From Chiloscyllium plagiosum (taxonomy: Eukaryota): 64,000 nucleotides of DNA. The translations under genes and the position numbers were made by a program. The notes under the pieces are model-generated. The model worked only from the letters and a program-made list of their open reading frames with translations, had not been told where the DNA came from and did no database searches. The stretch spans positions 5,791,488-5,855,487 of the forward strand of contig NC_057753.1 in NCBI RefSeq assembly GCF_004010195.1. The letters are read 5' to 3'. Each line of letters opens with the position of its first letter. Positions within the stretch are counted from its first letter, which is position 1. Below, one piece after another: positions 1,458-61,103 of this stretch.

Positions 1458-1527
1458 CTGGAAGGCCAATAGCTGCAAGGACGGGGTAGTAAATGGTGAA
1501 GACCAGCCCACTTGGCATTCCATGCAT
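1458..1527 (-). CDS. GPR139-like: GPR139-like GPCR unit 1, coding exon 1; exon 2 lies beyond the left edge of the window
   Basis: Identical 70-nt exon to 18009-18078, with ATG and G|GTAATT donor. Confidence 0.85.
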
Positions 1528-1578
1528 TTCTAAGCGAAGGTCTGACCATATCCAACACAATATTGAAAACCTGGTAAA

Positions 1579-1640
1579 TTTATACAAGGTTTCAGGCTCC
1601 AGGGAGCTAATTAAACTGTTTTGTTTCTACAGAAGCCAAT
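1579..1640 (-). promoter_or_regulatory. Putative proximal promoter of unit 1: TATAAA (1584-1579), O/E-like CTCCAGGGA (1597-1605), homeodomain TAATTA (1608-1613), CCAAT (1636-1640)
   Basis: Motifs read directly; spacing to the ATG is conserved in paralogs. Function is inferred. Confidence 0.55.
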
Positions 1641-2699
1641 TTACTGTAAGGAAAGAGGTGGCTCAGCTTAGATATAATATAATTTTATCTTTTTTTATAG
1701 AATCCGAGAAGTTACTTAAAAAATGTACGGCATAATCCAGCTTGTACTTCTTCTCTTTGGAAAAAGAAACTAGCTGCTTCGATACAAGTCCCAGACCAAA
1801 TCAATCAGATTAAAGATTGACTTCTTGAAAAATGCAAGCAAGTTCAAGTAGACTGCTCTCAGAGAGTGTTTCTCACTTTTTGTGAGAATAATTTAGGCAC
1901 TTAGAGAAGCACTGAGGGTGACAAGGGCGCAGAATGCATTCTGGCTGGGGATTTCAGTGTTTGACATAAAGAGTGGCTCAGCAGCAGCATTGGGTTGGGT
2001 CCGAATGTCTATGAAACCAAGACTAGTTTGTGGCTGGTGGGGAGTGAACCAATCACAGTGAAATACATATTCGACCTCATCCTTGCCAGCTGCATTTTTC
2101 ATGACAGCATCAATAAGAGTGACCACCTCCGAATCCTTGAGAAGGCAAGGTAGTGCCTTCACATTGAGAATGCTTTCCATGGTGTTGTGCAATACCTTCA
2201 CCGGACGAAATGGGACAAGATTTGAACAGATTCAGCAACTCAATTCTGGGCACCAGGAGTCGCTGCGAGCATTAATACTTCAGAATGGCACTCCAGCACA
2301 ATCATCATCACACGTCATGTACCCCAATCAATCATCGCAATTAAGTCCAAATCAATGGAGAGGGCAGGAGGGCATTCCAGGAACAGCGCCAAAAATATAT
2401 GACAATGAGGTGTCTCCTTGGTTAAACTACCAAATAGGACATGTTGGTCAACATGGACCAGTTTGGGACAAAGGGCCTTTTCCTGTGCTGTGACTCTATA
2501 AGTACATGATCAGTTGTACATGAAAGCAGCATTAGCAGCAAGTGATAGTCAGAGCGAAACAAGCCGACACCCAATAATCTAAACTCTGCCATTTCATTCA
2601 CCTCTGGAGGAATGGAGGCAGTGTTGTGTCCTTACTTATAAGTAGCATCAACGTGGGATGACAAGGACGGATTGTTGGTGATCACCACTTCTCAGAACT

Positions 2700-3780
2700 C
2701 GACCGTGTCCACCCCAGCACTATTGATGTATATAGCGCCTTTCCCCCCAAAGGCTTTCATCTTGCAGACATTGAGGGACCAATTGGTATTTTTACACCAA
2801 ATAAGTACTCTGTATCTTACCTGTATTCTTTCTCGTCTTTGCTGAGTTTTTTCTTATAATGGTGCTATCATCAGCTATCATGTAGATGGGGCTTGAAGAG
2901 AATGTGCTCGCACAGTCATTAGTATAGAGGCAGCGTAGCAAATGGATGAGCTCGCAGCCTTGTAGAGCAGTGATGTTGAAGATTATTGTTCAGGATGTGT
3001 AGGTGCCCATTCCCACGGATTGCTGTCTGTGGTCAGGAAGTCAAGGGTCCAGTTTTAGAGGGCGGAATAGAGGTCTCAAAGTCTGGAGATTAGTTTCGTT
3101 GGAATTATGCCATTGACGGTGGACATTTAAGTCAATAGGTGGGAGCCTGAGTTAGTTACCCTTTCAGCAGTCACTGGGAATACTGAAGAAGGTTTCTGTG
3201 GCACTGGGATGATGGCGATGTTCTTGAAGCAGGTGGAGGCTTCAATTCCTAATAAGGAGAGTTTAGTAATGTCAGCAAATATGCCCTTCAGCTGGTATGC
3301 ACAGGATCTGAATGCATGGCCAGAGACTCCACCGGAGCCCATCGCTTTAGTTGGGTTCACTCTCAAAAAAAGCCTCTCTGTGTCTGCTGCGGGAATTGGT
3401 GGAAGAGGCATGTCGAAGTCTGTGGGGGGAGGGAACATCATTTGAATGACCTACTGAGCATAAAATGCGTTTGGCGCATGAGGCAGGGATGTGTTTTTGT
3501 CTGATATTCTGTTCCATTCTGCTCTGTAGCTCATTTCGTCACACACGCCTCCCCACAGATGGTAGGAGTCCATGCAGTTAGTTTGGGTCACTAATGTAGT
3601 CCGGTATTGCCACTTGGCATTTCTAATGGCCTGACAGAGGGCATATCTGGATTTCCTATGAAAGGTCAGGATCATCACATTTGAACACCTCACAACCAGA
3701 CTTCAGGAGGGGAGGGATCTCCCAGTTCATCCATTGTGTCCACTTGAGCAACATACAGGTTAACGTCTTTGGCACTCAAC
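2700..3780 (-). mobile_element. Rex1/Babar-like LINE RT fragment
   Basis: Peptides RKSRYALCQAIRNAK and RSCAYQLKGIFADI..LSL...TCFKNIAIIPVPQK are typical of Rex1-clade RT; disrupted. Confidence 0.75.
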
Positions 3781-3789
3781 CTTTTCCAC

Positions 3790-5990
3790 ACTTGTTAATG
3801 CCAAAGAATGATGTTCAGGAAAGACAAACTACGTCGAGACATTTAATGAGTTTAAGGGAGTGGGTAACGGTCTGGCAGATGTAATTACAAAGTCGGTAAA
3901 GGGGAGAGTGCCCGCTTTGGAAACAAAAATAGTACGTCAGAATATTATTTAAATAGTGAAAGGTTGCAGCATGCTGTTGTTCAGGGTGACTTGGGACTGG
4001 TTGTACATGAATTGCTAAACGTTGATTTGCGGGTGCAACAAGTAATTGGGAAGGCAAACGGGATATTGTCTTTCATTGATAGAGGGATTGAATTTAAGAG
4101 CAGGGAGGCTCCGCTGCAATTGCACAAGGTGATGGTGTGGCCACACCTGGTATTTTGTGCGCATTTCTTGGGTTCCATACTTGAGGAAAAATATAATGAC
4201 TTTGGAGGCGGTGCAGAGGAGGTTCTCCAGGTTTATTTCAGAGTTACCCTTTGAGGAGAGCATTTTGTATCAGTATTTACTGTGGAAAAGGACATGGAAC
4301 ATATAGAATCTCAGGCAATATGTGGTTACATCTTGAAAAATGTCCATATTTCAGAGGAGGAACTGCTGGATATCTTGAAACGCATGAAAGTGGATACATC
4401 ACCACGACCTGATCATGTGTAACCCTAGAACTCTGTGGGAAGCTCGAGAACTGATTGCTGGGCCTGTTACTGAGATATTTGTATCATTAATAGTTCTCAG
4501 CTGAGGCACTGGAAGACTGGAGGTTGGTTAATTTGGTGCCACTGTTTAAGAAAGGTGGTAAGGACAAGCCAGGGAACCATAGACCAGCGAGCCTGACGTC
4601 AGTGGAGGGCAAGCTGTTGGTGGGAATCCTGAGGGACAAGATGTACATGTATTTGGAAAGGCAAGGACTAATTAGAATAGTCAAGATGCTTTTGTGCGTG
4701 GGAAATCATGTCTCACAAACCTGATTGAGTTTTTTGAAGGATCTTGATCAGATGAGCCAATGGGCTGAGAAGTGGCAGATGGAGTTTTATTTAGATAAAT
4801 TTGAGGTGCTGCATTTTGGGAAAGCAAATCTTAGCAGGACTTATATGGTAAGGTCCTAGGGAGTGTTGTTGAATAAACAGACCTTGGAGTGCAGGTTCAT
4901 AGCGCCTTGAAAGTGAAGTCGCAGGTAGATAGGATAGTGAAGAAGGCGATTGGTATGCTTTCCTTTATCGGTCAGAGGATTGAATACAAAGTTGGGATGT
5001 CATGTTGCGGCTGTCTAGGACATTGGTGAGGCCACTTAAGGAATATTGCTTGCATTCTGTTCTCCCTCCTATCGGAACGATGTTGTGAAACTTGAAAAGG
5101 TTCAGTACATATTTACAAGTATGTTGCCAGGGTTGCAGAATTTGAGGTATAGTGAGAAGTTGAATACGCTGGGACTGTTTCCCTTGGAGTGTCGGAGGCT
5201 GAGGGGTAACATTGTAGAGGTTTACAAAATCATGAGGGGCATGGATTGGATAAATTGAACTGGAGGGCAGAGGTTTAGGGTGAGAGGGAATAAGTATAAA
5301 AGAAACCCAAAGACCAATCTTTTCACACAGAGGGTGGTACGTGTATGGAATGAGCTGCCAGAGGAAGTGGTGGAGGCTGGTACAATTGCAACATTTAAAA
5401 GGCATTTTGTGAGGCAGAAAGAGTTTGGGGGATATGGGCCAGGTGCTGACAAGTGGGACCAGATTGGTTTGGGATATCCGTCAGCATGGACGAGTTGGAT
5501 CGAAGGGTCTATTTCCGTGTTGTATATCTCTACGACTCTATTACTCTATTCCTTTGTGAAAGGTTCAGCCGCCTGGGACTGTACTCGCTAAAATTTGGAA
5601 GACTGAGAGGGGACATTAGAGATAAATATAAATGATGAAATGGATAGATAAGATAAAGGCCGACAAACTGTTTCCCTGCTGGGTGAGACTAGGACTAGGG
5701 AACATGGACTCAAGATTAGGAGAGTAGATTTAAGGCAGAAATGAGGAAGAACAGCGTCTCCCAGAACGTAGTGAATCTGTGGAATTTTGTGCCCAAGGAA
5801 GTCGTAGAGGCAGCTTCATTAAATATATTCAAGGCAGAGTTGGATGGGATTTTCATGGTAGGGGAATTAAAGGTTATGGGGCTAATGCAGGCAGCAGGAG
5901 CTGAGATGATGTGTAGATCAGCCATGATCTTAATGAATAGCAGAGGAGGCTCAATGGGCCAAATGGCTTACTGCTGTTGTGATTACTATG
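3790..5990 (+). mobile_element. Nested CR1 LINEs: younger internally deleted CR1 (~4261-5549) inside an older CR1 3' fragment
   Basis: Peptides NLVPLFKKGGKDKPGNHRPASLTSV and FTQRVVRVWNELPEEVV; 3' tail ctctacgactcta; imperfect TSD cctttgagga/cctttgtgaa. Confidence 0.85.
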
Positions 5991-6513
5991 ATACTATCAA
6001 AGTCTGTAAATGTTTTGCATATTCAGTTACGTTGGTTTCTGAATTCTTGAATATGGAGAATCTACCAATTCCAAACAGTTCTATAGAAACTGATCCATCG
6101 CCTCAGATCAGCACTCTACCACTTGCTATACTGGGTGCTTATAAGGCAGAAGGAGGAACACAGCATTGTATTCTGATTTTCAGAAGTACCGAGGAGATAT
6201 GGCGTGGTGGGATCCTTGACTGTGTACCGTGGTTGTTCCGATGATTCTGTAAATACAGTGAATGTGGCTGTCCTCATGATCAAAATCAACTCACCATTTA
6301 GTTCACTGAAGAACTCCCGATGGTTTTAAAATCTTATCATTTGCAAACTGAACTCATTGGAAAAAATACTTGCATTCATGTGTTTAGCAAGGCAGTGTCT
6401 CAGGGTAACATTGCCGTTGGTACAATAAAGTCCAATGTGTCTGCTCTTGACTTGAACAAATGATGAGCTGCAACGTTTATCATGATACAGAACTTGAGAG
6501 AAATGTAAAACAA

Positions 6514-8553: not shown

Positions 8554-9464
8554 TCAGATTTTGAACGATTGATTCAATAGTCTCAGCGGATATTTCAGCC
8601 CATTCCTTAACTCGACTCTGATTTTCCTTTGGGTCCCAGCATAAATGAATGGATTGATACAGGAAGTCAAGAAGACAAGCATGAATCCGGTTTCTTCAAG
8701 AAGGAATGATTCTTCACTTAAATCGGATCCTGAGAAGTAAGCAACCTTCGCAACTCGGACATAGATAATCGTTATTACAAATAACAAATAGAACAGGATA
8801 AAAGTGCCGGAGATGGTGAAAAGTAAAACAATTGATTTTCTTCGCTTTTCCATTTCGGGATCACTATGATTCATCCTGTTGTTGTGGCCCCGCAGTCTCC
8901 TGCGGGCTCTGTTAGCCAATACAATGTGTCTGACGGTCAGAATATTCAGCAGTAAAATCAGAATAAAGGGGAGACAAGGGTTTACAATGGGCCGCATCCA
9001 GTCATAAACAGTCCAAGCTGGTGAAGTGTAAAATATTAATCTTACACTGCAAAACCAAGGTATGCTGTTAACTATGTACATGGGTTCGTATACAAAATAT
9101 GCAAAGGCATTTTTTAAACAGGTCAGTGCAGATACAATTCTGATCACACGCACTGCCACCTTCTCTGTGCAATATTTTGTTTTTAGATTCTGGCAACAAA
9201 TAGCCACAAATCTATCAAAGGTGAAAGCCACTGTGAACCAGGCAGAGCTATCAATAGCTGCATAATTAAAGGCCAAGCGAAGGCTGCATACTGGGGTGAT
9301 AAACAGGAAGCTGTATGGGAAGTATATCCCAGCAATCCGGTTTAATATTACAGCAGTGAATATGAGCATAAGATCCGTTATTGCCATGGACACCAGGTAG
9401 TACGTAATACATGGAGAGAGACCGCATCTCCTTTGGCACAGGATGACAATCACTGCCAGATTAG
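8554..9464 (-). CDS. GPR139-like: GPR139/GPR142-like class A GPCR, unit 2, coding exon 2 (TM1 C-terminal half to stop); spliced product 326 aa, apparently intact
   Basis: Open frame with hydrophobic TM segments and motifs PANLAVIVIL, MAITDL, TFDRFVAIC, NPCLPF and SCINPFIY. Acceptor ...ctattccAG at 9466-9465 is phase 1 and matches exon 1 at 18078-18009 (70+911=981 nt). Confidence 0.93.
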
Positions 9465-9619: not shown

Positions 9620-12600
9620 AGTGAAATTAATGGAAGTCTGTAGTGAGTAGAGTAGTGAAAGTGAGTAGAGTGTGTTCTTTCTTCATTATATGGTTTTTGA
9701 GATATATCTCTTGATTAAACTTAAAACATAAGCCGTACTTATTAATCTAACCTGGGACAGTGTTTTATTGAGAAATAAGTCAGTGTTATTTTCTGGGTCT
9801 GGAGATTGTGAAGGAGAGAAAATGACCTTTAGTAGAGTAATATGCGCTGCTTGACAGATTTGGGAGTTTAAACAGAGTTCAAGGGTTACTGTGGATTACA
9901 TCTGCCATAAATGTTGTTGGTTATGAATCTTATCTGATCGAATGGATCGGTTGGAGAGACACTTAGAAGCGATGAGGAATTTGCAACAGCAACAGTATGT
10001 GTTGGATGGCAGTTACAGGAAGGGAGGAAAGTCACAGCTACAGTCACATAGATGGGTTAACTCCAGGAAAGGTAAGAGAGATAGGCAGCTTGTGAAGGAG
10101 TCTCCTGTGCTATACGCATTTAAACCAGGTATTCTATTTTGGAAAATGTAGGGAATGATGGATTCTCAGTGGAACATAGCACGAACAGTCAAGTGTCTAG
10201 TATTGAGACAGGCTCTACTGCAACGAGGGGTACGTCCGGTTCCAAGAGATCAATTGTGTTAGGGGATTCTCTAGTCCGAGGTATACACAGACGTTTCTGT
10301 GGCCAGCAGCGAGAAAGCAGAATGGTGTGCTGTTTCCCTGGTGCCAGGATCAAGGATGTCTCAGAGAGGGCGCAGAATGTTCTCACGGGAGAGAGAGGTC
10401 ATTGTCCACATTGGAACCAACAATATAGGAAGGGAAAAGGTTGAGATTCTGAAGGGTTATTGCACATAGTTTGGCAGGAATTTAATAAGGAGGTTCTCAA
10501 GAGTAGTAATATCTGGATTACTCCCGGTGCTACGAGCAAGTGAGGGCGGAAATAAGAGGAAGCGCAGATGGATGCATGGCTGAGGAGCTGGTGTATGGGA
10601 GAAGGCTTCCCGTTTTTGGGTCATTGGAATCTCTTTTAGGGTTGAAGTGACCTGTACAAGAAGGACGGATTGCACCTAAATTGGCAGGGGACCTTATCCT
10701 GGCAGGGAGATTTACAAGAACTGCTCAGGAGGATTTAAACTAGTAAGGAGGAGGGAGGGTGGGACCCGGGTGGGACCCAGGGAGTTAGTGAGGAAACTGA
10801 TCAATCTGGGACTGGTACAGTTGAGAACAGAAGAGTGTCAAGCAGTCAGAGCAAGCAGGGACAAGGTCGGAGGAATAAATTAAACTGCATTTATTTCAAT
10901 GCAAGGGGCCTAACAGGGAAGGCACATGAACTCAGGGCGTGGTTAGGAACATGGGATTGGGATATCACAGCAATTACAGAAACATGGCTCAGGGATGGGC
11001 AGGACTGGCAGCTTAATGTTCCATGAAAGAAATGTTACAGGAAGGACAGAAAGGGAGGCGAGAGTGACGAGCAAGTCGCGTTTTTGATAAAGGACAGCAT
11101 TACGGCTGTGATGAAAAGGATACATCAGATCTAAAAGTTGAAGTTCTAAATTCGAGAAAGGCAAATTTTGACGGCATTAGGCAAGAACTTTCAAAAGCTG
11201 ATTGGGGACAGATGTTCATAGGTAAAGGGATAGCTGGAAAATGCAAAACCTTCAGGAATAAGTTAACGAGAATCCAGAGAAAGTATATTGCTATTCGGGT
11301 TAAAGGAAAGGCTGGTTGTATGGGGAATACTGGATGACGAAAGAAATGGAGTGTTTGGTTAAGAAAAAGAAGGAAGCATATAAGGCTTGCACAGGATAGA
11401 TTGAGTAAACCTTAGAAGACTATAAAGGCAGTTTAAGTATACATAAGAGGGAAATCAGAAGGGCAAAAAGGGGACATGAGATAGCTTTGGAAAATAGAAT
11501 TAAGGAGCACCCAAAGGGTTTTTACAAATGCATTAAGGACAAAAGGGTAACTAGGGAGTGAGTAAGGCACCTCAAAGATCAGCAAGGCGGCCTTTGTGTG
11601 GAGCCGCAGAAAATGGGGGACATACTAAACGAATATTTACTGTGGAAAAGGATATGGAAGATATAGAATGTAGGGAAATAGATGGTGACACATTGCAAAT
11701 GTCCATATTACAGAGGAGGAAGTGCTCGATGTCCTGAATCCCATGAAGGTGGATAAATCCCCAGGACCTGATCAGGTGTACCCTAGAATTCTGTGGGAAG
11801 CGAGAGAAGAGATTGCTGGGCCACTTGCCAAGGTATTTGTACCATCGATTGTCACAGGTGAGATGTCGGAAGACTGGAGGTTGGCTAATGTGGTGCCACT
11901 GTTTAAGAAGGGTGGTAAGGACAAGCCAGACAACTATAGACCAGTGAGCCTGACGTCAGTGGTGGGCAAGTTGTTGAAGGAAATCCTAACGGGCAGGATG
12001 TACGTACATTTGGAAAGGCAAGGACTGATTGGAGATAGTCATCATGGATTTGGACGTGTGAAATCATGTCTCACAAACCTGACTGAGTTTTTTTGAAGAA
12101 GTAACAAAGAGGATCGATGAGGGCAGAGAGGTAGATATGATCTACATGGACTTCAGTAAGGCGTTCGACAATGTTCCCCATGGGAGACTGGTTAGCAAGG
12201 TTAGATCTCACAGAATAGAGAGATAACTAGCCATTGGACACAGAACTGGCTCAAATGTAGAAGACAGAAGTTGATGGTGGAGGGTTGTCTTTTCAGACTG
12301 GAGGCCTGTGTCCAGTGGAGTGCCACACGGATTGGTGCTGGGTCCACTACCTTTTGTCATTTACATATATGATTTGGATGCGAGCATGAGAGATGCGATT
12401 AGTAAGTTTGCAGATGACTCCAAAATTGGAGGTGTAGTGGACAGCGAAGAGGGTTACCTCAGATTTCAACAGGATCTTGACCAGATGGTCCAAAGGGCTG
12501 AGTAGTGGCAGATGGTGTTTAATTCAGATGAATGCGAGGTTCTGCAATTTGGGAAAATAAATCTTAGCAGCACTTATACACTTAATGCTAAGGTCTGAGG

Positions 12601-13305
12601 GAGTGCTGCTGAATAAAGAGACCGTGGAGTGTAGGTTCATAGCTCATTGAAAGTGGAGTAGCAGATAGATAGTATACTGAAGAAGGCGTTTGGTCAGAAT
12701 ATTGAGTACAGAAGTGGTAGGTTATGTTGCAGCTGTACATGACATTGGTTAGGCCTCTGTTGGAGTATTGCATGCAATTCTGGTCTCCTTCCTATTGGAA
12801 AGCTGTAGTGAAACTTGAAAGGGCTCAGAAAAGATTTACAAGGATGTTGGAGAATTTGAGTTATAGAGAGAGGCTGATCACACTGGGGCTGTTTCCCTGG
12901 AGTGTCGGACATGGAGGGATGACCTCATAGAGGTTTACAAAGTCATGAGGAGCATAGATAGGGTAAATAGACAAAGTCTTTTCCCTGGGGTCGCGGAGTC
13001 CAGAACTAGAGGGCATAGGTTTAGGGTGAAAGGGGAAAGATATAAAGAGAGCTAAGGGGCAACGTTTTCACACAGACGGTCGTATGTGTCGGGAATGAGC
13101 TGCCAGAGGAAGTGGTAGAGGCTGTTACAATTGCAACATTTAAAAGGCATTTGCAAGGGTATATGAATAGGAAGGGTTTGGAGGGATATGGGCCGGGTGC
13201 TGGCAGGTGAGACTAGATTGGGTTGGGATATCTGGTCGGCATGGACTGGTTGGACCGAAGGGTCTGTCTCCATGCTGTGCATCTCTATGACGCTGTGAGT
13301 CTATA
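9620..13305 (+). mobile_element. Near-full-length defective CR1 (HER1-like) LINE in the unit 2 intron: ORF1 with SGNH/GDSL esterase motif, ORF2 APE endonuclease and RT
   Basis: IVLGDSLVRG...VCCFPGARIKDV; CIYFNARGL...AITETWL; KSPGPDQVYPRIL, YRPVSLTSVVGK, SKFADD; tail ctctatgac. Stops, frameshifts and an internal deletion near 11120. Confidence 0.92.
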
Positions 13306-15689: not shown

Positions 15690-17700
15690 TGGCTGGTTGG
15701 CTTTTACTGTAATTCTCAAGGAATCACAGAGAAACAGATGAAATAAATTCATGAAAGTCTGAGATTGTAACTATCCTAACGACGTGGTTGAGGGACGGGC
15801 AGGGTTGATAACCTAACATTCCAGGATATTGAATCTCCAGGCGACATACAAGAAAGTAAAAGAGGAGGAGGTTTTGCAGTACTATTTAAGTAGTCAATTC
15901 CTGCAATAGCGAGAGATGATATCTTGCAGAGTGCATTGTGGATTTCTGGATACAGCATAGGAATTAAAAAGGAAGTAAAAAGAGTCATCTGCATTGTGAC
16001 CTGTTTATTATAGACTTCCAGTTTGTCAGCAGGAAACCGAGGAGCCCAATGCACGGAGGTGTGTAAAAATAAAACCAAAAGGGGCACTGATTTCATCGTT
16101 TCCATCGTTAACTGCTGTAGACACAGTGTTAAGGAATTGGATGGAGTGGATTTCTTGACATGTGTCGTCAAGAAGTTTCAGAGCAATCTGCACAGAGTGC
16201 AAAATGGACAAAGTTGGTTTGGAACCTTTTCTGGGGAATGAAGCCGGGCAGCTAATGCAGGTGGTAATGTGGGAGTGGTGGGTGCTCGCATTTTCATGAC
16301 AGCGATCGGAGCATGGTAAAAATTAAGCTTCTTCAGGACAAAAACAGACAGTTAGGTTTTAAAAACGGAAGTTTTGGAATGGGAGGGAAAAGCGCTTAGT
16401 TAAATAAGGAAGGGTCTGTCCAAGCTAGACGGAGGAGAAAAACATTTGGACGGTTCAAAAGGAAATGGGTAGGATAGAAGCCCAACATTCTCGTTCTACG
16501 GTGGTAACAAGACTAACAAGCCAGGAGACCTGTGAATGAACTGTGGGTGCTTCCATCATCAGAGAGGTCATGCCTTTCAAATTTTATAGATTTTTTGTGG
16601 ATATGACCAGGTGTGTACATGAGGATAGTGCAGTGAATACATTTGATATGGAGTATAACAAAGCTTTCGACAATTTCCACATTGATGACTTACCAAAAAA
16701 GCCTAAGCACATGGGATACAAGGGAATTTGATCAAGTGGATTCAAAATTGGTTCATTTCCAGGAGACTAGTCCAGAAGGTTAGATCACATGCAATCCAAG
16801 GAGAGAGAGATGATTGGATTCAAAGTTGGCTCGATAGTAGGGCGCAGCGAGAATGGTTGTGGACTTCAGGCCTGTGACTAATGTTGTGTAAAAGGGGTGG
16901 GTGCTGAGCTCTTTGATATTTGTTATTTCCATAAATGATATCTATCTAATGCAGTAGGCATGATCAGTAAGATTGCAGATAAAACAAAATTAGGAGGTAT
17001 TGTTGATAGCGAGGAAGGTCATTAAATTTTACAGACGGATCTTGGTCAGATGGGGAAGTGGGAAGGCGATTAGCAAATGGAATTTAGTACAGAGAAATGT
17101 GAGGTGTTGCACTCTGGAAAGTCAAACCACGGCAGAACTTGTACAGAAACCGGTCAGTTCCTGAGTCGAAGGAGAAAGTGAGTACTGCAGATGCTGCAGA
17201 TCCGAATCAAAAGGTGTGGTACTTGAATAGCACAGCTGGTCAGGCAGCATCCGAGGAGCAGGAGAGTCAACGTTTTGAGAATATGCATTCCTGATGACGA
17301 GCTGATGCTCGAAACGTCGACTGTCCTGCACCTCGGATGCTGCCTGACTGGCTGTGCTTTTCCTGTACTACAGACCCTGCCGAGTGTTGTCGAACTGAGG
17401 AGTACATGTACATTGTTCGGAGAAAACGGCTTCAAAGGAAACAGAGTGGTGAAAAAGGATTTAACCTGCTGGCCTTCATCAGTCAAGGCTGTGCTTTCCC
17501 AGTACTACAGACCCTGACGAGTGTTGTCGAACTGAGGAGTACATGTACATTGTTCGGAGAAAACGGCTTCAAAGGAAACAGAGTGGTGAAAAAGGATTTA
17601 ACCTGCTGGCCTTCATCAGTCAAGGCAATGAGTAAAGGAAATGGAACATTATGGTACAGTTGTCTCAGTCATTTGTGAGGTGGTACTGAGAGTATGTTAT
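15690..17700 (+). mobile_element. Old degraded CR1 LINE in the unit 2 intron, containing a hammerhead-bearing hairpin element (~17170-17365)
   Basis: Homologous to 22930-25480 and 1-1150; CTGATGA-c-GAGC-tgat-GCTC-GAAA-CGTC at 17291-17318. Confidence 0.75.
17350..17623 (+). repeat. 137-bp direct tandem duplication (2 units)
   Basis: 17350-17486 repeated at 17487-17623 with few mismatches; ggc microhomology at the junctions. Confidence 0.9.
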
Positions 17701-18008
17701 CCATGTTATACAAAAGACATTGTTAGACCTAAATATGTTACAAGAATGTACACTCTTAATTCAGAGAAAATGAAATCATCAAATTGAATGAATTATAGAT
17801 GCGTTAAGACATTGAAGGTATTTTAAAAAACATTCCAAACACAAACACATCAGCCAAATGAAGTAAATCTACTCACGAAGTGGGATAATACATCACATGG
17901 AACAGGACAAAGGGTAAAGACTCTTAGAAAATGGATGACTGTTAAAATGGGAGAATAGATACAGCTAACCAATGATTCCCGCAGCGAGTAACTAACTACA
18001 ATAATTAC

Positions 18009-18078
18009 CTGGAAGGCCAATAGCTGCAAGGACGGGGTAGTAAATGGTGAAGACCAGCCCACTTGGCATTCCATGCAT
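18009..18078 (-). CDS. GPR139-like: GPR139-like GPCR unit 2, coding exon 1 (MHGMPSGLVFTIYYPVLAAIGLP + 1 nt)
   Basis: ATG at 18078, 70 nt, donor G|GTAATT. Joins in frame to 9464 to give YYPVLAAIGLPANLAVIVIL, similar to GPR139 TM1 (YY..LL.LGLPAN). Nearest upstream exon 1. Confidence 0.88.
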
Positions 18079-18129
18079 TTCTAAGCGAAGGTCTGACCAT
18101 GTCCAACACAATATTGAAAACCTGGTAAA

Positions 18130-18191
18130 TTTATACAAGGTTTCAGGCTCCAGGGAGCTAATTAAACTGTTTTGTTTCTACAGAAGCCAAT
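18130..18191 (-). promoter_or_regulatory. Putative proximal promoter of unit 2 (TATA + O/E-like + TAATTA + CCAAT)
   Basis: Same module as 1579-1640 at offset 16551. Confidence 0.55.
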
Positions 18192-19249
18192 TTACTGTAA
18201 GGAAAGAGGTGGCTCAGCTTAGATATAATATAATTTTATCTTCTTTCATAGAATCCGAGAAGTTGCTTAAAAAATGTACGGCATAATCCAGCTTGTACTT
18301 CTTCTCTTTGGAAAAAGAAACTAGCTGCTTCGATACAAGTCCCAGACCAAATCAATCAGATTAAAGATTGACTTCTTGAAAAATGCAAGCAAGTTCAAGT
18401 AGACTGCTCTCAGAGAGTGTTTCTCACTTTTTGTGAGAATAATTTAGGCACTTAGAGAAGCACTGAGGGTGACAAGGGCGCAGAATGCATTCTGGCTGGG
18501 GATTTCAGTGTTTGACATAAAGAGTGGCTCAGCAGCAGCATTGGGTTGGGTCCGAATGTCTATGAAACCAAGACTAGTTTGTGGCTGGTGGGGAGTGAAC
18601 CAATCACAGTGAAATACATATTCGACCTCATCCCTGCCAGCTGCATTTTTCATGACAGCATCAATAAGAGTGACCACCTCCGAATCCTTGAGAAGGCAAG
18701 GTAGTGCCTTCACATTGAGAATGCTTTCCATGGTGTTGTGCAATACCTTCACCGGACGAAATGGGACAAGATTTGAACAGATTCAGCAACTCAATTCTGG
18801 GCACCAGGAGTCGCTGCGAGCATTAATACTTCAGAATGGCACTCCAGCACAATCATCATCACACGTCATGTACCCCAATCAATCATCGCAATTAAGTCCA
18901 AATCAATGGAGAGGGCAGGAGGGCATTCCAGGAGCAGCGCCAAAAATATATGACAATGAGGTGTCTCCTTGGTTAAACTACCAAATAGGCCATGTTGGTC
19001 AACATGGACCAGTTTGGGACAAAGGGCCTTTTCCTGTGCTGTGACTCTATAAGTACATGATCAGTTGTACATGAAAGCAGCATTAGCAGCAAGTGATAGT
19101 CAGAGCGAAACAAGCCGACACCCAATAATCTAAACTCTGCCATTTCATTCACCTCTGGAGGAATGGAGGCAGTGTTGTGTCCTTACTTATAAGTAGCATC
19201 AACGTGGGATGACAAGGACGGATTGTTGGTGATCATCACTTCTCAGAAC

Positions 19250-20500
19250 TCGACCGTGTCCACCCCAGCACTATTGAAGTATATAGCGCCTTGCCCCCCA
19301 AAGGCTTTCATCTTGCAGACATTGAGGGACCAATTGGTATTTTTACACCACATAAGCACTCTATGTCTTACCTGTATTCTTTCTCGTCTTTGCTGAGTTC
19401 TTGCTTATAATGGTGCTATCATCAGTTATCATGTCGATGGGGCTTGAAGAGAATGTGCTCACACAGTCATTAGTATAGAGGCAGCGTAGCAAAGGGATGA
19501 GCTCGCAGCCTTGTGGAGTAGTGATGTTGAAGACTATTGTTCAGGATGTGTAGGTGCCCATTCCCACTGATTGCTGTCTGTGGTCAGGAAGTCAAGGGTC
19601 CAGTTTTAGAGGGCGGAATAGAGGTCTCAAAGCCTGGAGATTAGTTTCGTTCGAATTATGCGATTGACGGTGGACATTTAAGTCAATAGGTGGGAGCCTG
19701 AGTTAGTTACCATTTTTATTCAGGAATGAGTGCAGTTCCAGGTAGATGGCATCTGTCAGGTGGATCTGTTATCATGGTAGGTGACTTGCAAGGGATCAAT
19801 GTAGGCTGGGAGGCTAGGGTTGATGTAAGCCTTGACTAGCCTCTTGTAGCACTTTGTAATAATGGAGGTCAGCGGCACTGGGCTGCAGTCACTGGGAATA
19901 CTGAAGAAGGTTTCTGTGGCACTGGGATAATGGCGATGTTCTTGAAGCAGGTGGAGTCTTCAATTCCTAATAAGGAGAGGTTAGTAATGTCAGCAAATAT
20001 GCCCTACAGCTGGAAAGCACAGGATCTGAATGCATGGCCAGAGACTCCACCTGGGGCCATCGCTTTAGTTGGGTTCACTCTCAAAAACGCATCTCTGTGT
20101 CTGCTGCGGGGACTGGTGGAAGAGGTATGTCGAAGTCTGTGGGGGGAGGGAACATCATTTGAATGACCTACTGAGCATAAAATGCGTTTGGCGCATGAGG
20201 CAGGGATGTGTTTTTGTCTGATATTCTGTTCCATTCTGCTCTGTAGCTCATTTGGTCACACACGCCTCCCCACAGATGGTAGGAGTCCATGCAGTTAGTT
20301 TGGGTCACTAATGTAGTCCGATATTGCCACTTGGCATTTCTAATGGCCTGACAGAGGCCATATCTGGATTTCCTATAAAAGGTCAGGATCATCACATTTG
20401 AACACCTCACAACCAGACTTCAGGAGGGAAGGGATCTCCCAGATCATCCATTGTGTCCACTTGAGCAACATACAGGTTAACGTCTTTGGCACTTAACCTT
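19250..20500 (-). mobile_element. Rex1/Babar-like LINE RT fragment (duplicated copy)
   Basis: Paralog of 2700-3780, retaining ~167 bp that is deleted in the other copy. Confidence 0.75.
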
Positions 20501-21638
20501 TTCCACACTTGTTAATGCCAAAGAATGATGTTCAGGAAAGACAAACTACGTGGAGAGATTTAATGAGTTGAAGGGAGTGGGTAACGGTCTGGCAGATGTA
20601 ATTAAAAAGTCGGTAAATGGGAGAGTGCCCGCTTTGGAAACAAAAATAGTAGGTCAGAATATTATTTAAATAGTGAAAGGTTGCAGCATGCTGTTGTTCA
20701 GAGTGACTTGGGAGTGGTTGTACATGAATTGCTAACAGTTGATTTGCGGGTGCAACAAGTAATTGGGAAGGCAAACGGGATATTGGCTTTCATTGATAGA
20801 GGGATTGAATTTAAGAGCAGGGAGGCTCTGCTGCAATTGCACAAGGTGATGGTGTGGCCACACCTGGTGTTTTGTGCGCATTTCTTGGGTTCCTTACTTG
20901 AGGAAAAATATAATGACTTTGGAGGCGGTGCAGAGGAGGTTCTCCAGCTTTATTGCAGAGTTACCCTTTGAGGAGAGCATTTTGTATCAGAATTTACTGT
21001 CAAAAAGGACATGGAACATACAGAATCTCGGGCAATAGGTGGTTACGTCTTGGAAAATGTCCATATTTCAGAGGAGGATCTGCTGGATATCTTGAAACGC
21101 ATGAAAGTGGATACATCACCACGTCCTGATCATGTGTAACCCTAGAACTCTGTGGGAAGCTAGAGAAGTGATTGCTGGGCCTGTTACTGAGATATTTGTA
21201 TCATTAATAGTTCTCAGCTGAGGCACTGGAAGACTGGATGTTGGCTAATATGGTGCCACTGTTTAAGAAAGGTGGTAGGGATAAGCCAGGGAACCGTAGA
21301 CCAGCGAGCCTGACGTCAGTGGAGGGCAAGCTGTTGGAGGGAATCCTGAGGGACAAGATGTACATGTATTTGGAAAGGCAAGGACTAATTAGAGTAGTCA
21401 AGATGCTTTTGTGCGTGGGAAATCATGTCTCACAAACTTGATTGAGTTTTTTGAAGGATCTTGATCAGATGAGCCAATGGGCTGAGAAGTGGCAGATGGA
21501 GTTTTATTTAGATAAATTTGAGGTGCTGCATTTTGGGAAAGCAAATCTTAGCAGGACTTCTATGGTAAGGTCCTAGGGAGTGTTGTTGAATAAACAGACC
21601 TTAGAGTGCAGGTTTATAGCTCCTTGAAAGTGAAGTCG

Positions 21639-22138: not shown

Positions 22139-22322
22139 AGGCTGCATACTGGGGTGATAAACAGGAAGCTGAATGGGAAATAAATCCCAGCAATCCGGTT
22201 TAATATTACAGCCGTGACTATGAGCATGAGATCCGTTATTGCCATGGACAGCAGGTAATAGGTAATACATGCAGAGAGACCACAGCTTCGTCGACACAGG
22301 ATGACAATCACTGCCAGATTAG
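22139..22322 (-). CDS. GPR139-like: GPR139-like GPCR unit 3, exon 2 (5' part; remainder lost in assembly gap)
   Basis: Acceptor ...gtatttcAG at 22324-22323. Translates ANLAVIVILCRRSCGLSACITYYLLSMAITDLMLIVTAVILNRIAGIYFPFSFLFITPVCS, a close paralog of unit 2, with no stop before the Ns. Confidence 0.88.
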
Positions 22323-26014: not shown

Positions 26015-26084
26015 CTGGAAGGCCAATAGCTGCAAGGACGGGATAGTAAATGGCAAATACCAGCCCTCTTGGTATTCCATGCAT
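26015..26084 (-). CDS. GPR139-like: GPR139-like GPCR unit 3, coding exon 1 (MHGIPRGLVFAIYYPVLAAIGLP + 1 nt)
   Basis: 70 nt, ATG at 26084, donor G|GTAATT, in phase with acceptor at 22322. Confidence 0.88.
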
Positions 26085-26135: not shown

Positions 26136-26197
26136 TTTATACAAGGTTTCAACCTCCAGGGAGCTAATTAAACTGTTTTGTTTCTACAGTAACCAAT
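26136..26197 (-). promoter_or_regulatory. Putative proximal promoter of unit 3 (TATA + O/E-like + TAATTA + CCAAT)
   Basis: tttata 26136-26141, ctccaggga 26154-26162, taatta 26165-26170; same distances from the ATG as units 1 and 2. Confidence 0.55.
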
Positions 26198-37719: not shown

Positions 37720-38295
37720 AGGCTAGTTTTCTTGTAACCCTCCCAATCATTTTATAACAAAGAACCCCAGTCCAGTGTTTGTAAAGTACCGCCAGCCCAC
37801 CGATAACATAAACCCTCAGCCCTGTGTTTATATAGCATCCATCCCAGTTTTCACACAACCGCCCGACCTAGTGTCTACTCAACCACCCTGTCTGGTGTTA
37901 ATATAAGCCGCCCAGTGCCGTGATTCTACAATACCTGCCAGTGTAATTTTCTAACACTCCCAGCAACAGTGTTTATATAATGCTGCCACAGTCATTTTAT
38001 AACAACCTCCCCCAGCAGCATTGATATAACATTGCTCCAGTAATTTTATAACTGCTCCAAATGTCAGTGTTTATGATATTCACATCCCCAAGTAATTTTA
38101 TAACAAATACCAAAACCAGTATTTACATAAAACCCGAAATAATGTTATAACAATCCTACCAGTCCACTGTGTATATAACATAAACCCCCAGTAATTTCAT
38201 TACAACCCTCCCAAAACAGTCGATATATAACACAGCCCCCAGTAATTTTACAATGAACAATTCCAGTCCAGTGTTTATATAAACACTCGCCAGAA
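37720..38295. repeat. Degenerate satellite array, left part
   Basis: Recurrent ccagtgtttatataac / cagtaattttataac subunits. Confidence 0.8.
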
Positions 38296-40544: not shown

Positions 40545-41219
40545 AACCAGCGCATTATTGTAAAACACACAACCCCCATAGTAATTTTATAACAGCCTCC
40601 CAGCCCAGTGTTTATATAACACACACCCCCACAGTAATTTTATAACAGCCTCCTAGCCCAGTGTTTATATAACACCACTCCCACAGTGATTTTATAACAG
40701 CCTCCTAGCCCAGTGTTTATATAACACCACTCCCACAGTGATTTTATAACAGCTCCCCCAGCCCAGTGTTGATGTCACACACACCCCCACAGTAATTTTA
40801 TACCAGCCCACCAGCCCAGTGTTAATATAACATACACACACAGTAATGTTATAACTTGCAACCCAACCCAGTGTTTATATAACACACAACCCCACAGTAA
40901 TTTTATAACAGCTACCCCAGCCCAGTGTTTATACAACACACATCCCAATCGTAATTGTATGACAGCCCCCCAACCTAGTGTTCATATAAAATACACACAC
41001 ACAGTAATTTTGTAACAGCACCCAGGCCAGTGTTTATGTAACACACATTCCCACTGTAATTTTATAACAGCACCCCCAGCCCAGTGTTTATGTAACACAC
41101 ATTCCCACTGTAATTTTATACCACACACCCCATTCCAGTGTTTATATAACACACACACCCCAGCCCAGTGTTTATATAACACACACCCATCCCAGTGTTT
41201 ATATAACACACACCACCCC
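40545..41219. repeat. ~60-bp satellite array (two related ~30-bp subunits), running into a gap
   Basis: (cccagtgtttatataacacacacccccacagtaattttataacagcctc...)n, about 11 units. Confidence 0.92.
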
Positions 41220-42416: not shown

Positions 42417-42486
42417 CTGAAACACCAACAATTGCAATAACTGGATAGTAAATGGCAAACACCAGACCTGTTGGCAATCCGTGCAT
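42417..42486 (-). pseudogene. GPR139-like exon 1 (MHGLPTGLVFAIYYPVIAIVGVS + 1 nt), probably of pseudogenised unit 4
   Basis: 70 nt, ATG at 42486, donor G|GTAAAA. The exon itself is intact. The nearest visible downstream exon 2 is the degraded one at ~29.8-30.4 kb, but gaps intervene. Confidence 0.75.
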
Positions 42487-56000: not shown

Positions 56001-56870
56001 ATTTGGCAATGTCCCATACGAAAGGCTCGTCCAAAAGAATCGAGCCCAAACCAAGTCGACAAACTGGTTTTAAAGTTGACTTTTGCATAGAAGGCAACGG
56101 GTGTTGGTGGAGTTTTTTTGTGTGACTGGAAGCCTGTAATCTCTGGTGTAAGACTGGTTCAGTGCAGGAACTCATCTTGTTTGTAATGTAAAATAACGAC
56201 TTAAAAATGAATGTGGAAATTATAATCAGGAAGTTTTCAGATGACATGAAAATCGGTGGTACAGTTGATGATAAGGTAGTTGGTCTGAGGCAATAATCTG
56301 TTATTAATCAGCTCGTAAACTGGACAGGGAAACCAGTTAGAATTGAATGCTGTTTACAGTTCTTATCGTCATGCTGTTCGAAGGATTTGATTATACTGGA
56401 GAGAGTGGAAAGGAGATTCATCAGGATATTGCCTTCAATGAAACGTTTCAGCATGAAGAAAAACTGCAATAACTGTGTGTGTGCAGGATGCTGAGCGGGA
56501 GGGGCAGTGTTTGATTAATAGATAAAAAAAGTTATAAGAGACGTAGACAGATAGATCGTGGGAATGTATTCCCTATGACTGCTAGTCTAAGTCTATTAGT
56601 TCAAGGCGAGGACAAGACGTTTTAGTGGAAATATGAATAACAGAAAGGTCGCACGACGGCTCCACAAATATGGCATGAGTTGGATACGATGATGGTGGAG
56701 TCAAGTGCCCTCGCAACATTTCAGAATCATCTGAATGAGCATTTGGAATGCCAGGCCATAATCAGCTGTGGACCAAATGCAGGTAAATGGGATTAATCTT
56801 GTTTGTTTTTTATTGGTCGCCAGACAGGTACGAAGGGCGTGATTCTGTGTTGCTTGATTCTAATGACTTT
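53100..56870 (+). mobile_element. Ancient, heavily degraded long CR1-type LINE with nested old Penelope-derived fragments (~55325-55455, 55520-55865)
   Basis: ORF1-like LGRRLKRKTTKAVI, LNCICLTAR, tacaggcctccc, aagttttcagatgacatgaaaatcggtgg and 3' UTR remnants in colinear order. Confidence 0.65.
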
Positions 56871-59800
56871 ATAATTTTGAATCTCTTGTATACCGGAAGG
56901 AGCACCGAATCCTGTGTACTTATGATATTGAAAAAAGATGTTATTGGCGCCATATTGCAAGTTACTATCCAGCTCTCAGTTTCTTGCGGGCAACAATAAT
57001 AATATTGTTTGTCGCAGAATTTATCCAACTTCTAATTTTAATATAACAAATATAACCATCACTCACCTATTAATGAAGGAACCCCGCTCTTTTCCATACC
57101 TCCACCTCCTTGTTTGTAAAAATCCAAAATAAAATGATATCCCTTCGGGAGTGTAGCAGCAAATGTCCAGTCACAAAAGAATGTGTAACTGTAAGTCTCA
57201 CTGAAAGACAAAATACAGTTGACATGCACAGAGAAATATATTATATTAGACGAAACATATGTAATGAGAAAGTGGTATAGATTTGTGAGTATTTAATATA
57301 CAGAGAAAAATAACGGAAAATAGCAAGTTAAATCTCAACTGGCTCGGTTTGGAAACCATTCCGTCGATGGTAGGAGTGGATGATCACTCCCCCTGTGGCT
57401 GTCTTGGAGCTTCAGCAGCCATTAGAAACAAATGTGGGGACTTAGAAACATAATCTGCTTGTGTCCGACTGTAGAACGACCACTTGAGTCTTTCCCTACA
57501 CATAGCACAATTTGACATGTCGCTACAGGAATGAATGTGTGAAGGGTCAGCATATTGCAAGAGTGGTTAAAATCATTGCAGTTGAATATTAGATCTACAC
57601 TGTTGGTGTAATGTGGTTCCCAACTTGGGTGGAGCATATAAAACTGTGCTGCAATTGAAAAGGGCGATATGCTTCCAATGCAACAAACTTTGAGCGGATT
57701 TATTAGTTTTGTGGAACTCTTATATAACTTCCTAAACTTGGAGTATTAGGCCAAGTGACAATAATTCGACAACTGGAAGGAATGACTGAATTCCTTTCTG
57801 CACTAGATAGGCCTCTGAGTGGTATCGCCACATTCACGTTCTTTCAGTCTCTTTGCTGCTACGGAGGGTTGCATGAGATTTCTCGTGCACATTCAACTGC
57901 TGAATGTTCATGAACTCATAGCGTGTCAGAGAATCTCAATGTCCACTTCCCATATTGGAATACAACCTGTCCTCCATGTACCATCTGTACAAATATGGCG
58001 ACAAAGTGATATTTACCTCGAAAATAAGGGACCAAAAGGATCATTTATCAGCCACTTGACTCCACTACCTTATCACTACAACATACTCCAACTCTTCTTT
58101 ACTATTCAAAACTGTTTCCTTATTCTACAATGCTAATCGATCCGGTAATGTTAGAAAGTAACACTTTTAGTGTGGTAAAATACAATTGATTCTATTGGAT
58201 CTCGGATAGATTTGTAAGTATGTTGAACTCCCAGCTGCCCTCAATGCACCTGATGCCATATGTAGAAGCTTTGAATCTATGACTTAGTCCTCTTTTAACT
58301 TGGTGATCCTATTACATGATGAGTCAGCAAATGGGAAATGTAGTTCAAGACTGTATTTTAATATGGAATCCAAACTTATAGATTTCTTAACATCTTATTG
58401 ATGTCGACAAAATTATTAACTTGTGGCCCAGAAGCAAGAAGTATTGATATTGAAATAATAATTATCCAGGTCTCACTTCTGAGTGGGTTACTTCTTGATC
58501 AAGTAACGTGCAGTGTTATTTCTTCCATCGTCTGATGTTTAGGTCCAAGGGAAGTCGCCTGACTTAAACATGAATAACACTATTCGCAAATCTTGTTATT
58601 CAGTTGTTGTCCAGGCGACTGAGCAGGTTAACGAGATGTCTTGGGTGTGAGGAAGCCCCACCGAAGTTATGGTTTCTGCCATGTTTCAAAGACAGCTGGC
58701 TTCATTTTCAAAGGACTAATTTCTGAGCGAGGAGTAGTGACATTTTTCTCCCTCAGGAGCATTTTGGTAGTATTTACAATAAAATAAGAAAGGCCAACAT
58801 AGAGACCATGAAGTATCTAATCTGCTTCCTCTAAACGTCTCACTGCAGATCTGAGTGAAGATAAATGAGGGGAAGCTTTCTACTATGTTGCCTGCTGTAG
58901 ACAATATGAACAAGCAACCTTAGACAAAAGTAAAGGCGAAGCAGCTACCACAGGTCGTGGGCAGTCATCATGTTGGCTGTCAGAAGCATGTTCGTCTCTC
59001 TGTTCAGAGTATTGGTCAATTAGAGGTCACTGATGTGCATCCATCGTCGATTGATCACATGCATGAACCGTGAGCGGCTATCTTTCAACAAACTCAACAT
59101 CAGTGCGAGGACCAATGAAATGAATTTACATGCAGGGATCATAGCTCATGAAGAAAATAAAGGATAAAAAAAGAGACAATACGCCATGTGTACAAAACTG
59201 ATGATGGGTAGGAAGTGGGATAAATGAATGCAGAGTGGGCAACTGCCTTTGGAGAGCAAGACCAGGAATCCTGGGGAGGGGAATGGGCAATTGTTGAGAT
59301 GAAGAAACCCTCCACGAATTGAACAATAGAATTTTCACATTTGGAGACATGTCAAAGTCCATGTCATGATCTATCAATGGAAATTTTGCCATCTCAACAG
59401 TCTCAACCAATCACACAGGTAATCAGCAAGATTAACAAGAAGACTGAATTTTGCAAAGGTGTAAAAACTCAAACATTAAGGAGCATCTTCATAATAGTTT
59501 ACACCCTCCATTTACGAAGATGCAAACCTGCGACCACAGAGGCGCATCAAATTCATGACGAATGTGACATGACACAGCGAGATGCAAAAACTCTGACCAT
59601 GGCATTGATAGTTATGATCATTGACGTTCAAAAGAGAATGTGAGAGAATAGACATATTCCATTTCGGACTGAGGCTGTGGCTTTGGTATAATCCCAAATA
59701 TAGTACGTGATGGAACTGTGCATGAAGTTTCATTGCTCAGGAATTGCGTGAATATTTGACAAAGCTCCAAGTTGAAACGCATAGATTAAGGGGGCTAGAG

Positions 59801-60196
59801 GCTAACCCAGGTTATTGGTGGAACCAGGATGATGTTCACAGAAGAACAATGGGCATGCATCATGTTTTCTGACTTTGCGAGCTTTGTGAACAAACCACAG
59901 CAGCACAGCTTGTGCCTGCATGACCGTTCACTTACTGATTACAAACAAAAAGCAACTGGAGGGTTTTGAATATCATCAGGCCTGAACCTATACAGTTGCA
60001 AATTTATTCGCTGCTGTTTCTCTTTGCAAAATGGCGTTGTAAATTAATGAATGAAGCATGCGTACATATTTCACAAATGTTCAAACACGAATGAACTTTC
60101 AGTTTGAGGGCATGGGTGACAAGACATGTAGAAGGCATGTGTGGGCGACATGCAACATCCATGTTTCATTTAATATTCTCAATGGGTTGGAGATTT

Positions 60197-61103
60197 TTAC
60201 AACTTAGCAAAAAATCTCAAAGGATATTGCAAACCATTCTTCAACTCATCTCTCAATTTACTCTGTGTTCCAGCATAGATAAAGGGATTGATGCAGAAAT
60301 TCAGAAACTGAAGCATAAACCCCGTTTTTTTCCAGGATAAAGGATGAGGACCCGTAATCAGAACGTGAATAATAAGCAACCTTTGCAATTCTTGAATACA
60401 GTACTGTTATAAAAAGTACTGAATACAGCAAGGTAAAATTATGTGAAATGCCAAAAGGTAAGGTGATGGATTTTTTTTCCGCTTCTCCATCTCTGGGTCA
60501 CTCTGATTCTCTGCATTAGTCTGAGTCCAGAGTCTTTTACGGGCTCTGTTGGCTGCCAGAATAAGTCTTACAATCAGAACGTTGCACAGTGCTTTCAGAA
60601 TGAATGGGAGAGAGGGAGTTAAAATAGACCGCCTCAAATCATACGCAATCCGTGTTGTTGTTGTACTAAATAGTTGTTCAACAACGCAGAAACACGGTAC
60701 TTTATCAATTATATTGAAAGGTTCAAATATAAAATACAAGAACACATTTCTTTTAGACAGTTCAGTTTGCAAACACTCCCGATAGCCCACGTTGCAATCT
60801 TCTCCGTACAGTATCTATTTTTCAGCTTCTGGGAACAATTGGCCACAAATCAATCAAACGTGAAAGCAACTGTTAACCAGGCAGAACTATCTATGAGAGC
60901 ATAAATTAGGACTACACAGAGGCGGCAAATTGGTGTGATGGATAGGAAAGTGAATGGTAGATAAATACCAGAAATTTGATTTATAATGACAGTGACAATG
61001 ATGACTAATAGATCTGCAAGCGCCATGGACACGACGTCATAAATGATACATCCAGACAGACCACATCTTCTTCGGTAAAAGATCACTACCACTGCCAAGT
61101 TTG
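60197..61103 (-). pseudogene. GPR139-like unit 5, full-length but disabled exon 2; exon 1 lies beyond the right edge
   Basis: Acceptor ...tggtacAG at 61105-61104, then ANLAVVVIFYRRRCGLSGC...SSAWLTVAFTFD* (TGA at 60852-60850 in place of the DRF Arg). Further frameshifts follow. Ends CINPFIYAGTQSKLRDELKNGLQYPLRFFAKL*. Confidence 0.9.

What the first reader, a model, noticed from the sequence alone, without database searches (positions are those of the whole stretch)
1458..61103. Tandem birth-and-death cluster of GPR139-like GPCRs: a candidate unrecognised chemosensory receptor family in a cartilaginous fish
Seen: five same-strand units in 64 kb, sharing a 70-nt exon 1 and phase-1 intron. One is intact, one is gapped, two are pseudogenes and one is partial; the array runs off both window edges. 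Known: mammalian GPR139 and GPR142 are single-copy receptors activated by aromatic amino acids. Sharks have few classical ORs, and tandem clustering with rapid pseudogenisation typifies chemosensory and immune receptor families. Inference: this is a lineage-expanded family that may serve as amino-acid or peptide chemoreceptors, not a GPR139 ortholog.
Basis: partly seen in the sequence, partly recalled or inferred. Interest (0 to 1): 0.8.

Follow-up and report, generated by a model that had tools for sequence, protein, structure and literature searches.

The report
Thousand-gene hidden shark receptor family
These five receptor genes are a small slice of a family with well over a thousand copies in this shark genome, mislabelled as GPR139 in databases, and their smell-gene-like control sequences suggest a likely but untested extra set of chemical sensors in animals thought to have very few.

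Summary
The five minus-strand, two-exon class A GPCR units are real: one intact (326 aa), two broken, two interrupted by assembly gaps. [quoted passage not shown] Independent exon-1 and exon-2 motifs match 1,594 and 1,867 places in this genome (controls 0 and 6), pseudogenes and possible haplotype duplicates included. Homologues occur in many sharks and rays. It is not GPR139: single-copy GPR139 and a likely GPR142 lie elsewhere, share about 20% identity, and a joint clade is rejected (p-AU 0.0013). It groups with a salamander gene and low-copy fish and coelacanth orphans, likely Rinne's GPR210 clade. The window's subfamily keeps a homeodomain + O/E-like + TATA promoter, as odorant-receptor genes do. 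Another subfamily (at least 567 copies) is under strong positive selection at 13 extracellular sites; the window's subfamily is not. No expression data were obtained. Best reading: an undescribed chemosensory repertoire (about 0.55); immune sensing is the main rival. Ten literature searches found no description. This scan reported the same family on other windows and genomes before.

The parts
60200..61103 (-). Unit A exon 2, pseudogene (premature TGA in TM3, several frameshifts); its exon 1 and promoter lie about 1.7 kb beyond the right window edge
   Evidence: 3' end approximate
42417..42486 (-). Unit B exon 1 (70 nt, phase-1 donor); O/E-like site at 42564-42556, no TATAAA
29791..30369 (-). 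Unit B exon 2 remnant: TM4 end to helix 8 only, frameshifted, with a short repeat fragment inserted at about 30295-30221
26136..26170 (-). Unit C promoter: homeodomain-type site, O/E-like site, TATA box
26015..26084 (-). Unit C exon 1 (70 nt)
22139..22322 (-). Unit C exon 2, open until the 500-N gap (22138-21639); status undetermined
18130..18164 (-). Unit D promoter: homeodomain-type site, 2 nt, O/E-like site (18156-18148), TATA box (18135-18130), 57 nt before the ATG
18009..18078 (-). Unit D exon 1 (70 nt)
8554..9464 (-). Unit D exon 2, intact; spliced product 326 aa, Pfam 7tm_1
1579..1613 (-). Unit E promoter (same architecture as unit D)
1458..1527 (-). Unit E exon 1, identical to unit D exon 1; exon 2 not assembled (gap, then the next exon 1)

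Best explanation
The window is part of a family of over a thousand two-exon rhodopsin-type receptor genes in sharks and rays that likely serves as a chemosensory repertoire, predicted to be expressed sparsely in olfactory or other sensory neurons and to detect water-borne peptides or charged small molecules. Shown: the size, the shared gene structure, the separate origin from GPR139/GPR142, the conserved promoter, and pocket-rim positive selection in one subfamily. Inferred: unequal crossing-over makes tandem copies; a homeodomain factor and an O/E (EBF) factor switch them on in sensory neurons; a fixed intracellular face feeds one G-protein pathway while the outer pocket diversifies. Untested: tissue, one-receptor-per-cell expression, ligand, G protein.
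For: Size: exon-2 motifs 1,108 (control 0) and 1,867 (control 6); exon-1 motif 1,594 (control 0). All 20 strict-motif loci fetched were family members. Intact exon 2: 8 of 20 sampled C7/C8 loci (2 gapped, 10 broken) and 58 of 72 TM7-motif loci listed on C44 (13 broken, 1 not examined). Purifying selection overall: omega 0.26 in 26 window-type genes. Promoter: adjacent homeodomain + O/E-like sites in 10 of 21 short-N-terminus promoters at -160 to -60, 0 in all 13 further upstream bins, shuffle mean 0.004; O/E-like 9-mer in 15 of the 17 loci whose retrieval match excluded it; exact composite 53 vs 15 control genome-wide, 19 on C44; not seen in 260 nt before the one single-copy relative checked. 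O/E, homeodomain and TATA sites are enriched in mouse OR promoters (PMC3247239, passages); adjacent Lhx2/Ebf sites mark OR enhancers (PMC5608512, passages). C8 subfamily (567 motif matches): M2a vs M1a 2dL 500, omega2 8.7, 13 of 13 selected sites extracellular; dN 0.171 outside vs 0.029 elsewhere, dS 0.168 vs 0.113; Y3.33, D3.37, H5.42, W6.48, E7.36 invariant in 31 of 31.
Against: No expression evidence at all. The window's own subfamily shows no positive selection (2dL 1.5, p 0.48; dN/dS 0.28 outside vs 0.20 elsewhere), nor does a third subfamily by region (0.29 vs 0.29). The strict composite was absent from the 25-27 scorable long-N-terminus promoters, so the promoter signal and the selection signal come from different subfamilies. 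The promoter pattern and the region limits were set after seeing the sequences; the O/E consensus is recalled. EBF factors also act in B cells and other neurons (recalled). Nearly all catshark olfactory neurons are TRPC2/Go microvillous cells that fit V2R use (PMC10116579, passages). No GPCR was among the top 50 genes of a catshark brain-and-olfactory library (PMC11979771, passage), and shark OR genes are expressed in spleen, testis and stomach, so receptor type alone does not give the tissue. An omega of 8.7 fits immune arms races as well as smell.
Confidence: 0.55

Rival explanations
1. An innate-immune sensor repertoire: leukocyte or epithelial receptors for microbial or damage peptides, working like formyl-peptide or MRGPR receptors.
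For: Very strong pocket-rim positive selection and about half broken copies in the C8 subfamily; nearest folds are peptide and chemoattractant receptors, on a low-confidence model; EBF is a B-cell factor (recalled); two catshark OR genes are spleen-specific.
Against: Homeodomain site beside the O/E-like site plus TATA matches OR promoters rather than lymphocyte genes (the lymphocyte side is recalled); the window's subfamily evolves slowly.
Confidence: 0.22
2. Mixed use: subfamilies split between tasks, for example short-N-terminus genes (this window) in sensory neurons and the fast long-N-terminus genes in immunity or reproduction (pheromone, kin or gamete recognition); or internal peptide and metabolite sensing in gut and brain.
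For: Promoters, N-termini and selection differ sharply between subfamilies; the wider clade holds neuropeptide receptors (PMC8514136, passages).
Against: An endocrine ligand does not need hundreds of receptors; no expression data.
Confidence: 0.15
3. Mostly neutral copy accumulation or assembly inflation: duplicated segments and uncollapsed haplotypes of a modest family.
For: Many C8-type hits are on small unplaced contigs; units D and E flanks are 96-97% identical; 10 of 20 sampled C7/C8 copies are broken.
Against: The 31 C8-type genes are at most 97.6% identical, mean 91.7%; omega 0.25 outside the pocket; 58 of 72 C44 copies are open; 1,439 homologues at 90% clustering, best 120 listed nearly all from ten shark genera.
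Confidence: 0.08

Closest known systems
GPR210A/GPR210B orphans of coelacanth, gar and fishes (Rinne et al. 2019, PMC6504862)
   Same: Non-mammalian orphans placed beside GPR139/GPR142. Coelacanth, silverside and anchovy proteins, and two shark genes orthologous to them, are the next branches outside the family; a salamander gene is its sister (100/99).
   Different: Described as low-copy subtypes with no shark data ('shark' 0 occurrences); here one branch has over a thousand copies. The match of my coelacanth protein to their Ensembl ids was not checked.
GPR139 and GPR142
   Same: Class A, same phase-1 intron acceptor before the TM1 Asn; aromatic residue at 3.33; source of the automatic database name.
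   Different: Each has its own single gene in this genome (C21; C24, 56% to GPR139, taken as GPR142); about 20% identity; joint clade rejected; pocket residues differ.
Vertebrate chemoreceptor families OR, TAAR, V1R/ORA, V2R/OlfC
   Same: Huge clustered birth-and-death family, compact coding region, short N-terminus in this subfamily, homeodomain + O/E + TATA promoter, variable pocket.
   Different: No sequence membership: only Pfam 7tm_1; separate ancestry; olfactory expression not shown.
Lineage-specific class A GPCR expansions of invertebrates (PMC11886862) and FPR/MRGPR families (recalled)
   Same: Peptide-receptor-like ancestors expanded into sensor repertoires with variable loops; atlas neighbours carry the Srw chemoreceptor domain in part of their members.
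   Different: Independent expansion in a jawed vertebrate; no orthology tested.

Membership tests
Class A (rhodopsin) GPCR | 7tm_1 domain, N1.50, D2.50, DR3.50, C3.25-ECL2 Cys, P5.50, NPxxY | tested here: met
   Pfam E 5e-21; motifs invariant in 26 of 26 window-type genes; C138 invariant in 50 of 50
GPR139 (ortholog) | Reciprocal best match and one clade with GPR139 | tested here: not met
   True GPR139 is a single gene on C21; 20% identity; p-AU 5e-7 for family+GPR139, 0.0013 with GPR142 and salamander added
GPR139 (ortholog) | Trp/Phe site F3x33, H5x43, W6x48, N7x38 (PMC5430874 abstract) | tested here: not met
   Intact window gene has Y, R, Y, F; the C8 subfamily has Y, H, W, F; positions mapped from the HMMER alignment
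GPR139/142-related superclade | Shared phase-1 intron at the end of the first TM1 turn | tested here: met
   Same acceptor before the TM1 Asn in GPR139, GPR142, both single-copy relatives and most family loci
GPR210 clade (Rinne 2019) | Groups with the coelacanth, gar and fish orphans named GPR210A/B | tested here: inconclusive
   Groups with coelacanth and teleost orphans at 98/98 and 96/95, but the paper's own accessions were not available to align
OR / TAAR / V1R / V2R | Family-specific sequence profiles | tested here: not met
   Only 7tm_1 among 24,736 Pfam models
Olfactory receptor family (functional sense) | Large clustered repertoire with pseudogenes | tested here: met
Olfactory receptor family (functional sense) | Homeodomain + O/E promoter | tested here: met
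   Met in the window's subfamily; strict form not found in long-N-terminus subfamilies
Olfactory receptor family (functional sense) | Sparse, near-monogenic expression in sensory neurons | not testable with these tools
   No RNA holder listed; single-cell runs of unknown tissue gave no usable signal
Olfactory receptor family (functional sense) | Activation by external chemicals | not testable with these tools
   Needs a ligand assay

The most novel reading that the evidence does not exclude
Sharks and rays smell mainly with a fifth, independently evolved receptor family of about a thousand genes derived from a peptide-receptor-like orphan, regulated by the same homeodomain/O-E logic as mammalian odorant receptors. 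The view that they have only a few dozen olfactory receptors would then be an artefact of searching four known families.
Probability: 0.4. Interest if true: 0.92.

Novelty: new variant of a known kind. Interest (0 to 1): 0.78.

Why it matters
Published counts give the catshark 34 V2R genes and 4-9 genes in each other olfactory family (PMC10116579), and cartilaginous fishes are called poor in GPCRs (PMC8455134). A family with 1,600-1,900 loci in one shark, near the elephant's 1,948 OR genes (PMC11979771), contradicts the second statement whatever its function. It makes the puzzle of a large shark nose with few receptors directly testable with existing RNA-seq. If it is immune instead, it would be a very large germline GPCR sensor repertoire in a vertebrate.

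Tried and rejected
Expression: no RNA holder listed. Laying reads on exon 2 and its flanks: two contig sets look genomic (they cover intron and repeats), one single-cell run (2% read) gave 27 mostly partial reads, another none; no evidence either way, and splicing could not be tested across the whole intron. Summed contig depths were not used as copy number. A 1,396-nt 'joint' matches a neighbouring paralog, not an intron. Structure: AlphaFold model weak (pLDDT 59); the fold search gave only generic peptide and chemokine receptors. Rfam: nothing. The catshark sensory paper's supplement, which holds tissue expression, could not be read and may bear on expression. Literature: ten searches; none listed a paper describing this expansion; finds inside PMC11979771, PMC8455134, PMC10620051, PMC11886862 and preprint 10.64898/2026.08.31.747588 gave no mention. 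Subscription papers are not covered. Rejected: GPR139 orthology; retro-copying (introns and promoters retained); fused database models with zinc-finger, channel or integrin domains, taken as likely gene-model artefacts (not checked on DNA). First exons of GPR139 and GPR142 were not found within 10 kb.
Full report
Observation. The window holds four 70-nt coding first exons and four second exons of a class A GPCR, all on the minus strand. Unit D is intact: 18078-18009 spliced to 9464-8554 gives 326 aa, Pfam 7tm_1 only. Unit A (61103 down) has a stop in TM3 and frameshifts; its first exon lies about 1.7 kb right of the window. Unit B keeps a clean first exon but only the 3' half of exon 2, broken. 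Unit C runs into a 500-N gap after 184 nt of exon 2. Unit E is a first exon identical to D's, followed outside the window by a 1,175-N gap and another first exon. The flanks of D and E are 96-97% identical over about 4 kb: a recent tandem duplication, or a duplicated haplotype.

Family size. The window is G000:C44:5791488-5855487. The intact exon 2 gave 129 of 129 scored matches at 60% identity or more, out of 8,099 candidates. Two other subfamily queries gave 130 and 129 further, largely different loci. Exact motif counts: ten TM3 codons 1,108 (control 0); relaxed TM3 1,867 (control 6); exon 1 1,594 (control 0); one subfamily's ICL1 motif 567; the window-type TM7 motif 160. Of 20 strict-motif loci that I picked from the first 100 listed (C7 and C8 only), all were family members: 8 intact, 2 gapped, 10 broken. 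Of 72 TM7-motif loci listed on C44, 58 have an open exon 2, 13 are broken, 1 was not examined (overlap counted by hand; motif-bearing copies lean intact). So several hundred to over a thousand intact second exons are likely. Unplaced contigs may add haplotype duplicates, and some frameshifts may be assembly errors.

Range and origin. A protein search found 1,439 homologues; the 120 listed are nearly all shark models automatically named 'probable GPR139' or similar. Twenty of 150 profile hits were looked up: sharks, four rays, salamanders, coelacanth, two teleosts, amphioxus, and four without a shown organism. One of these (A0A4W3GUW7) falls inside the expansion; I recall that prefix as a chimaera, unverified. 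A GPR139 motif matched one place, on C21; its best relative, on C24 at 56%, is taken as GPR142. Both share the family's intron acceptor position but only about 20% identity. In two trees (51 and 22 rows, LG+G4, one outgroup; two loci were missed in the first) the chondrichthyan genes form one clade, sister to a salamander gene, then two low-copy fish/shark lineages, then amphioxus, with GPR139+GPR142 outside. A clade of family, salamander, GPR139 and GPR142 is rejected (p-AU 0.0013). Rinne et al. 2019 (PMC6504862, passages) named such fish and coelacanth orphans GPR210A/B and had no sharks. GPR139/142 are related to invertebrate MIP, FMRFamide and proctolin receptors (PMC8514136, passages).

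Selection. I wrote GY94 site models; the one-ratio likelihoods match IQ-TREE to 0.1. In 31 C8-type genes (28 of the 30 best hits to one query, two dropped for a gap or no acceptor, plus three sampled loci) M2a beats M1a by 2dL 500, with 5% of sites at omega 8.7. All 13 sites with posterior over 0.95 are in ECL1, ECL2 and the tops of TM6 and TM7 (99 of 293 columns; Fisher p 4e-7; limits set after seeing the sites). dN rises six-fold there, dS 1.5-fold, so gene conversion may contribute but is unlikely to explain all. The deep pocket (Y3.33, D3.37, H5.42, W6.48, E7.36) is invariant: a fixed anchor with a variable rim, as expected for peptide-like ligands (inference). In 26 window-type genes omega is 0.26 with no selected class (p 0.48), and 19 genes of a third subfamily show no regional contrast. 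The intact window gene has Y, R, Y, F at GPR139's four Trp/Phe-site positions (PMC5430874, abstract), so an aromatic-amino-acid ligand does not carry over. The conserved Arg5.42 and Asp3.37 could hold a carboxylate and an amine (inference).

Promoter. Earlier notes of this scan suggested smell-gene-like promoters; I tested this. Units C, D and E have a TAATT-type site, 2 nt, an O/E-like 9-mer and a TATA box 57 nt before the ATG. Of 60 first-exon loci fetched, 55 could be anchored; among 21 non-redundant short-N-terminus loci the composite is in 10, the O/E-like site in 16, TATA in 14, against 0 composites in 13 upstream bins, and the motifs are conserved at 70-90% inside flanks at 30-60%. Genome-wide the exact composite occurs 53 times against 15 in the control, 19 on C44. 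The long-N-terminus loci lack the strict form, though weaker similar elements are visible. O/E, homeodomain and TATA sites mark mouse OR promoters (PMC3247239, passages) and adjacent Lhx2/Ebf sites mark OR enhancers (PMC5608512, passages). The O/E consensus itself is recalled.

What is missing. No expression or ligand evidence. Catshark olfactory neurons are nearly all TRPC2/Go microvillous cells and the V2R co-receptor is expressed at 'moderate frequency' (PMC10116579, passages and sections 8 and 13), which neither requires nor excludes another family. Shark OR genes are expressed outside the nose (PMC11979771, passages and section 13).

Verdict. The family is real, very large, under selection, separate from GPR139, and undescribed in ten searches of the open library. 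A chemosensory role is the best-supported reading at about 0.55, immune sensing next. This window adds an intact, slowly evolving member with a clear promoter. The scan has reported the family from other windows of this and other genomes; those notes are not independent support.

Noticed in passing
L139, L141, L147, L149, L151, L155 (exon 1 of long-N-terminus subfamilies, C5/C7/C8): Exon 1 carries a variable number of 42-nt tandem repeats coding a 14-residue unit, some with N-glycosylation sequons, giving length-variable N-termini.
   Followed up: partly
G000:C8 (107.6 Mb): The fast-evolving subfamily is scattered along the contig every few hundred kb on both strands rather than in tight tandem arrays; 80 strict-motif matches in the first 48 Mb.
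   Followed up: no
G000:C26:36.60 Mb (L098) and C98156 (L087): Two conserved shark orphans orthologous to coelacanth and teleost genes, likely GPR210A/B, with no mammalian hit seen.
   Followed up: partly
window 40564-41214 and 37943-38286: 54-bp minisatellite (12 copies) running into a gap, with a degenerate second copy; they flank an L1-like ORF2 relic at 39923-38418.
   Followed up: no
window 11-4921 vs 16420-21638: Near-identical blocks (96-97%) 16.5 kb apart, each next to an assembly gap: recent duplication or duplicated haplotype.
   Followed up: partly
window, many places (e.g. 4274-5549, 11634-13304, 61289-63063): Decayed CR1/L2-type LINE reverse-transcriptase fragments and short palindromic repeats fill introns and spacers (class recalled).
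   Followed up: no
P0047, P0189, P0200: Database models fuse a family member to zinc-finger, sodium-channel or integrin domains, probably mis-joined neighbours; hints that C2H2 zinc-finger genes lie beside some clusters.
   Followed up: no
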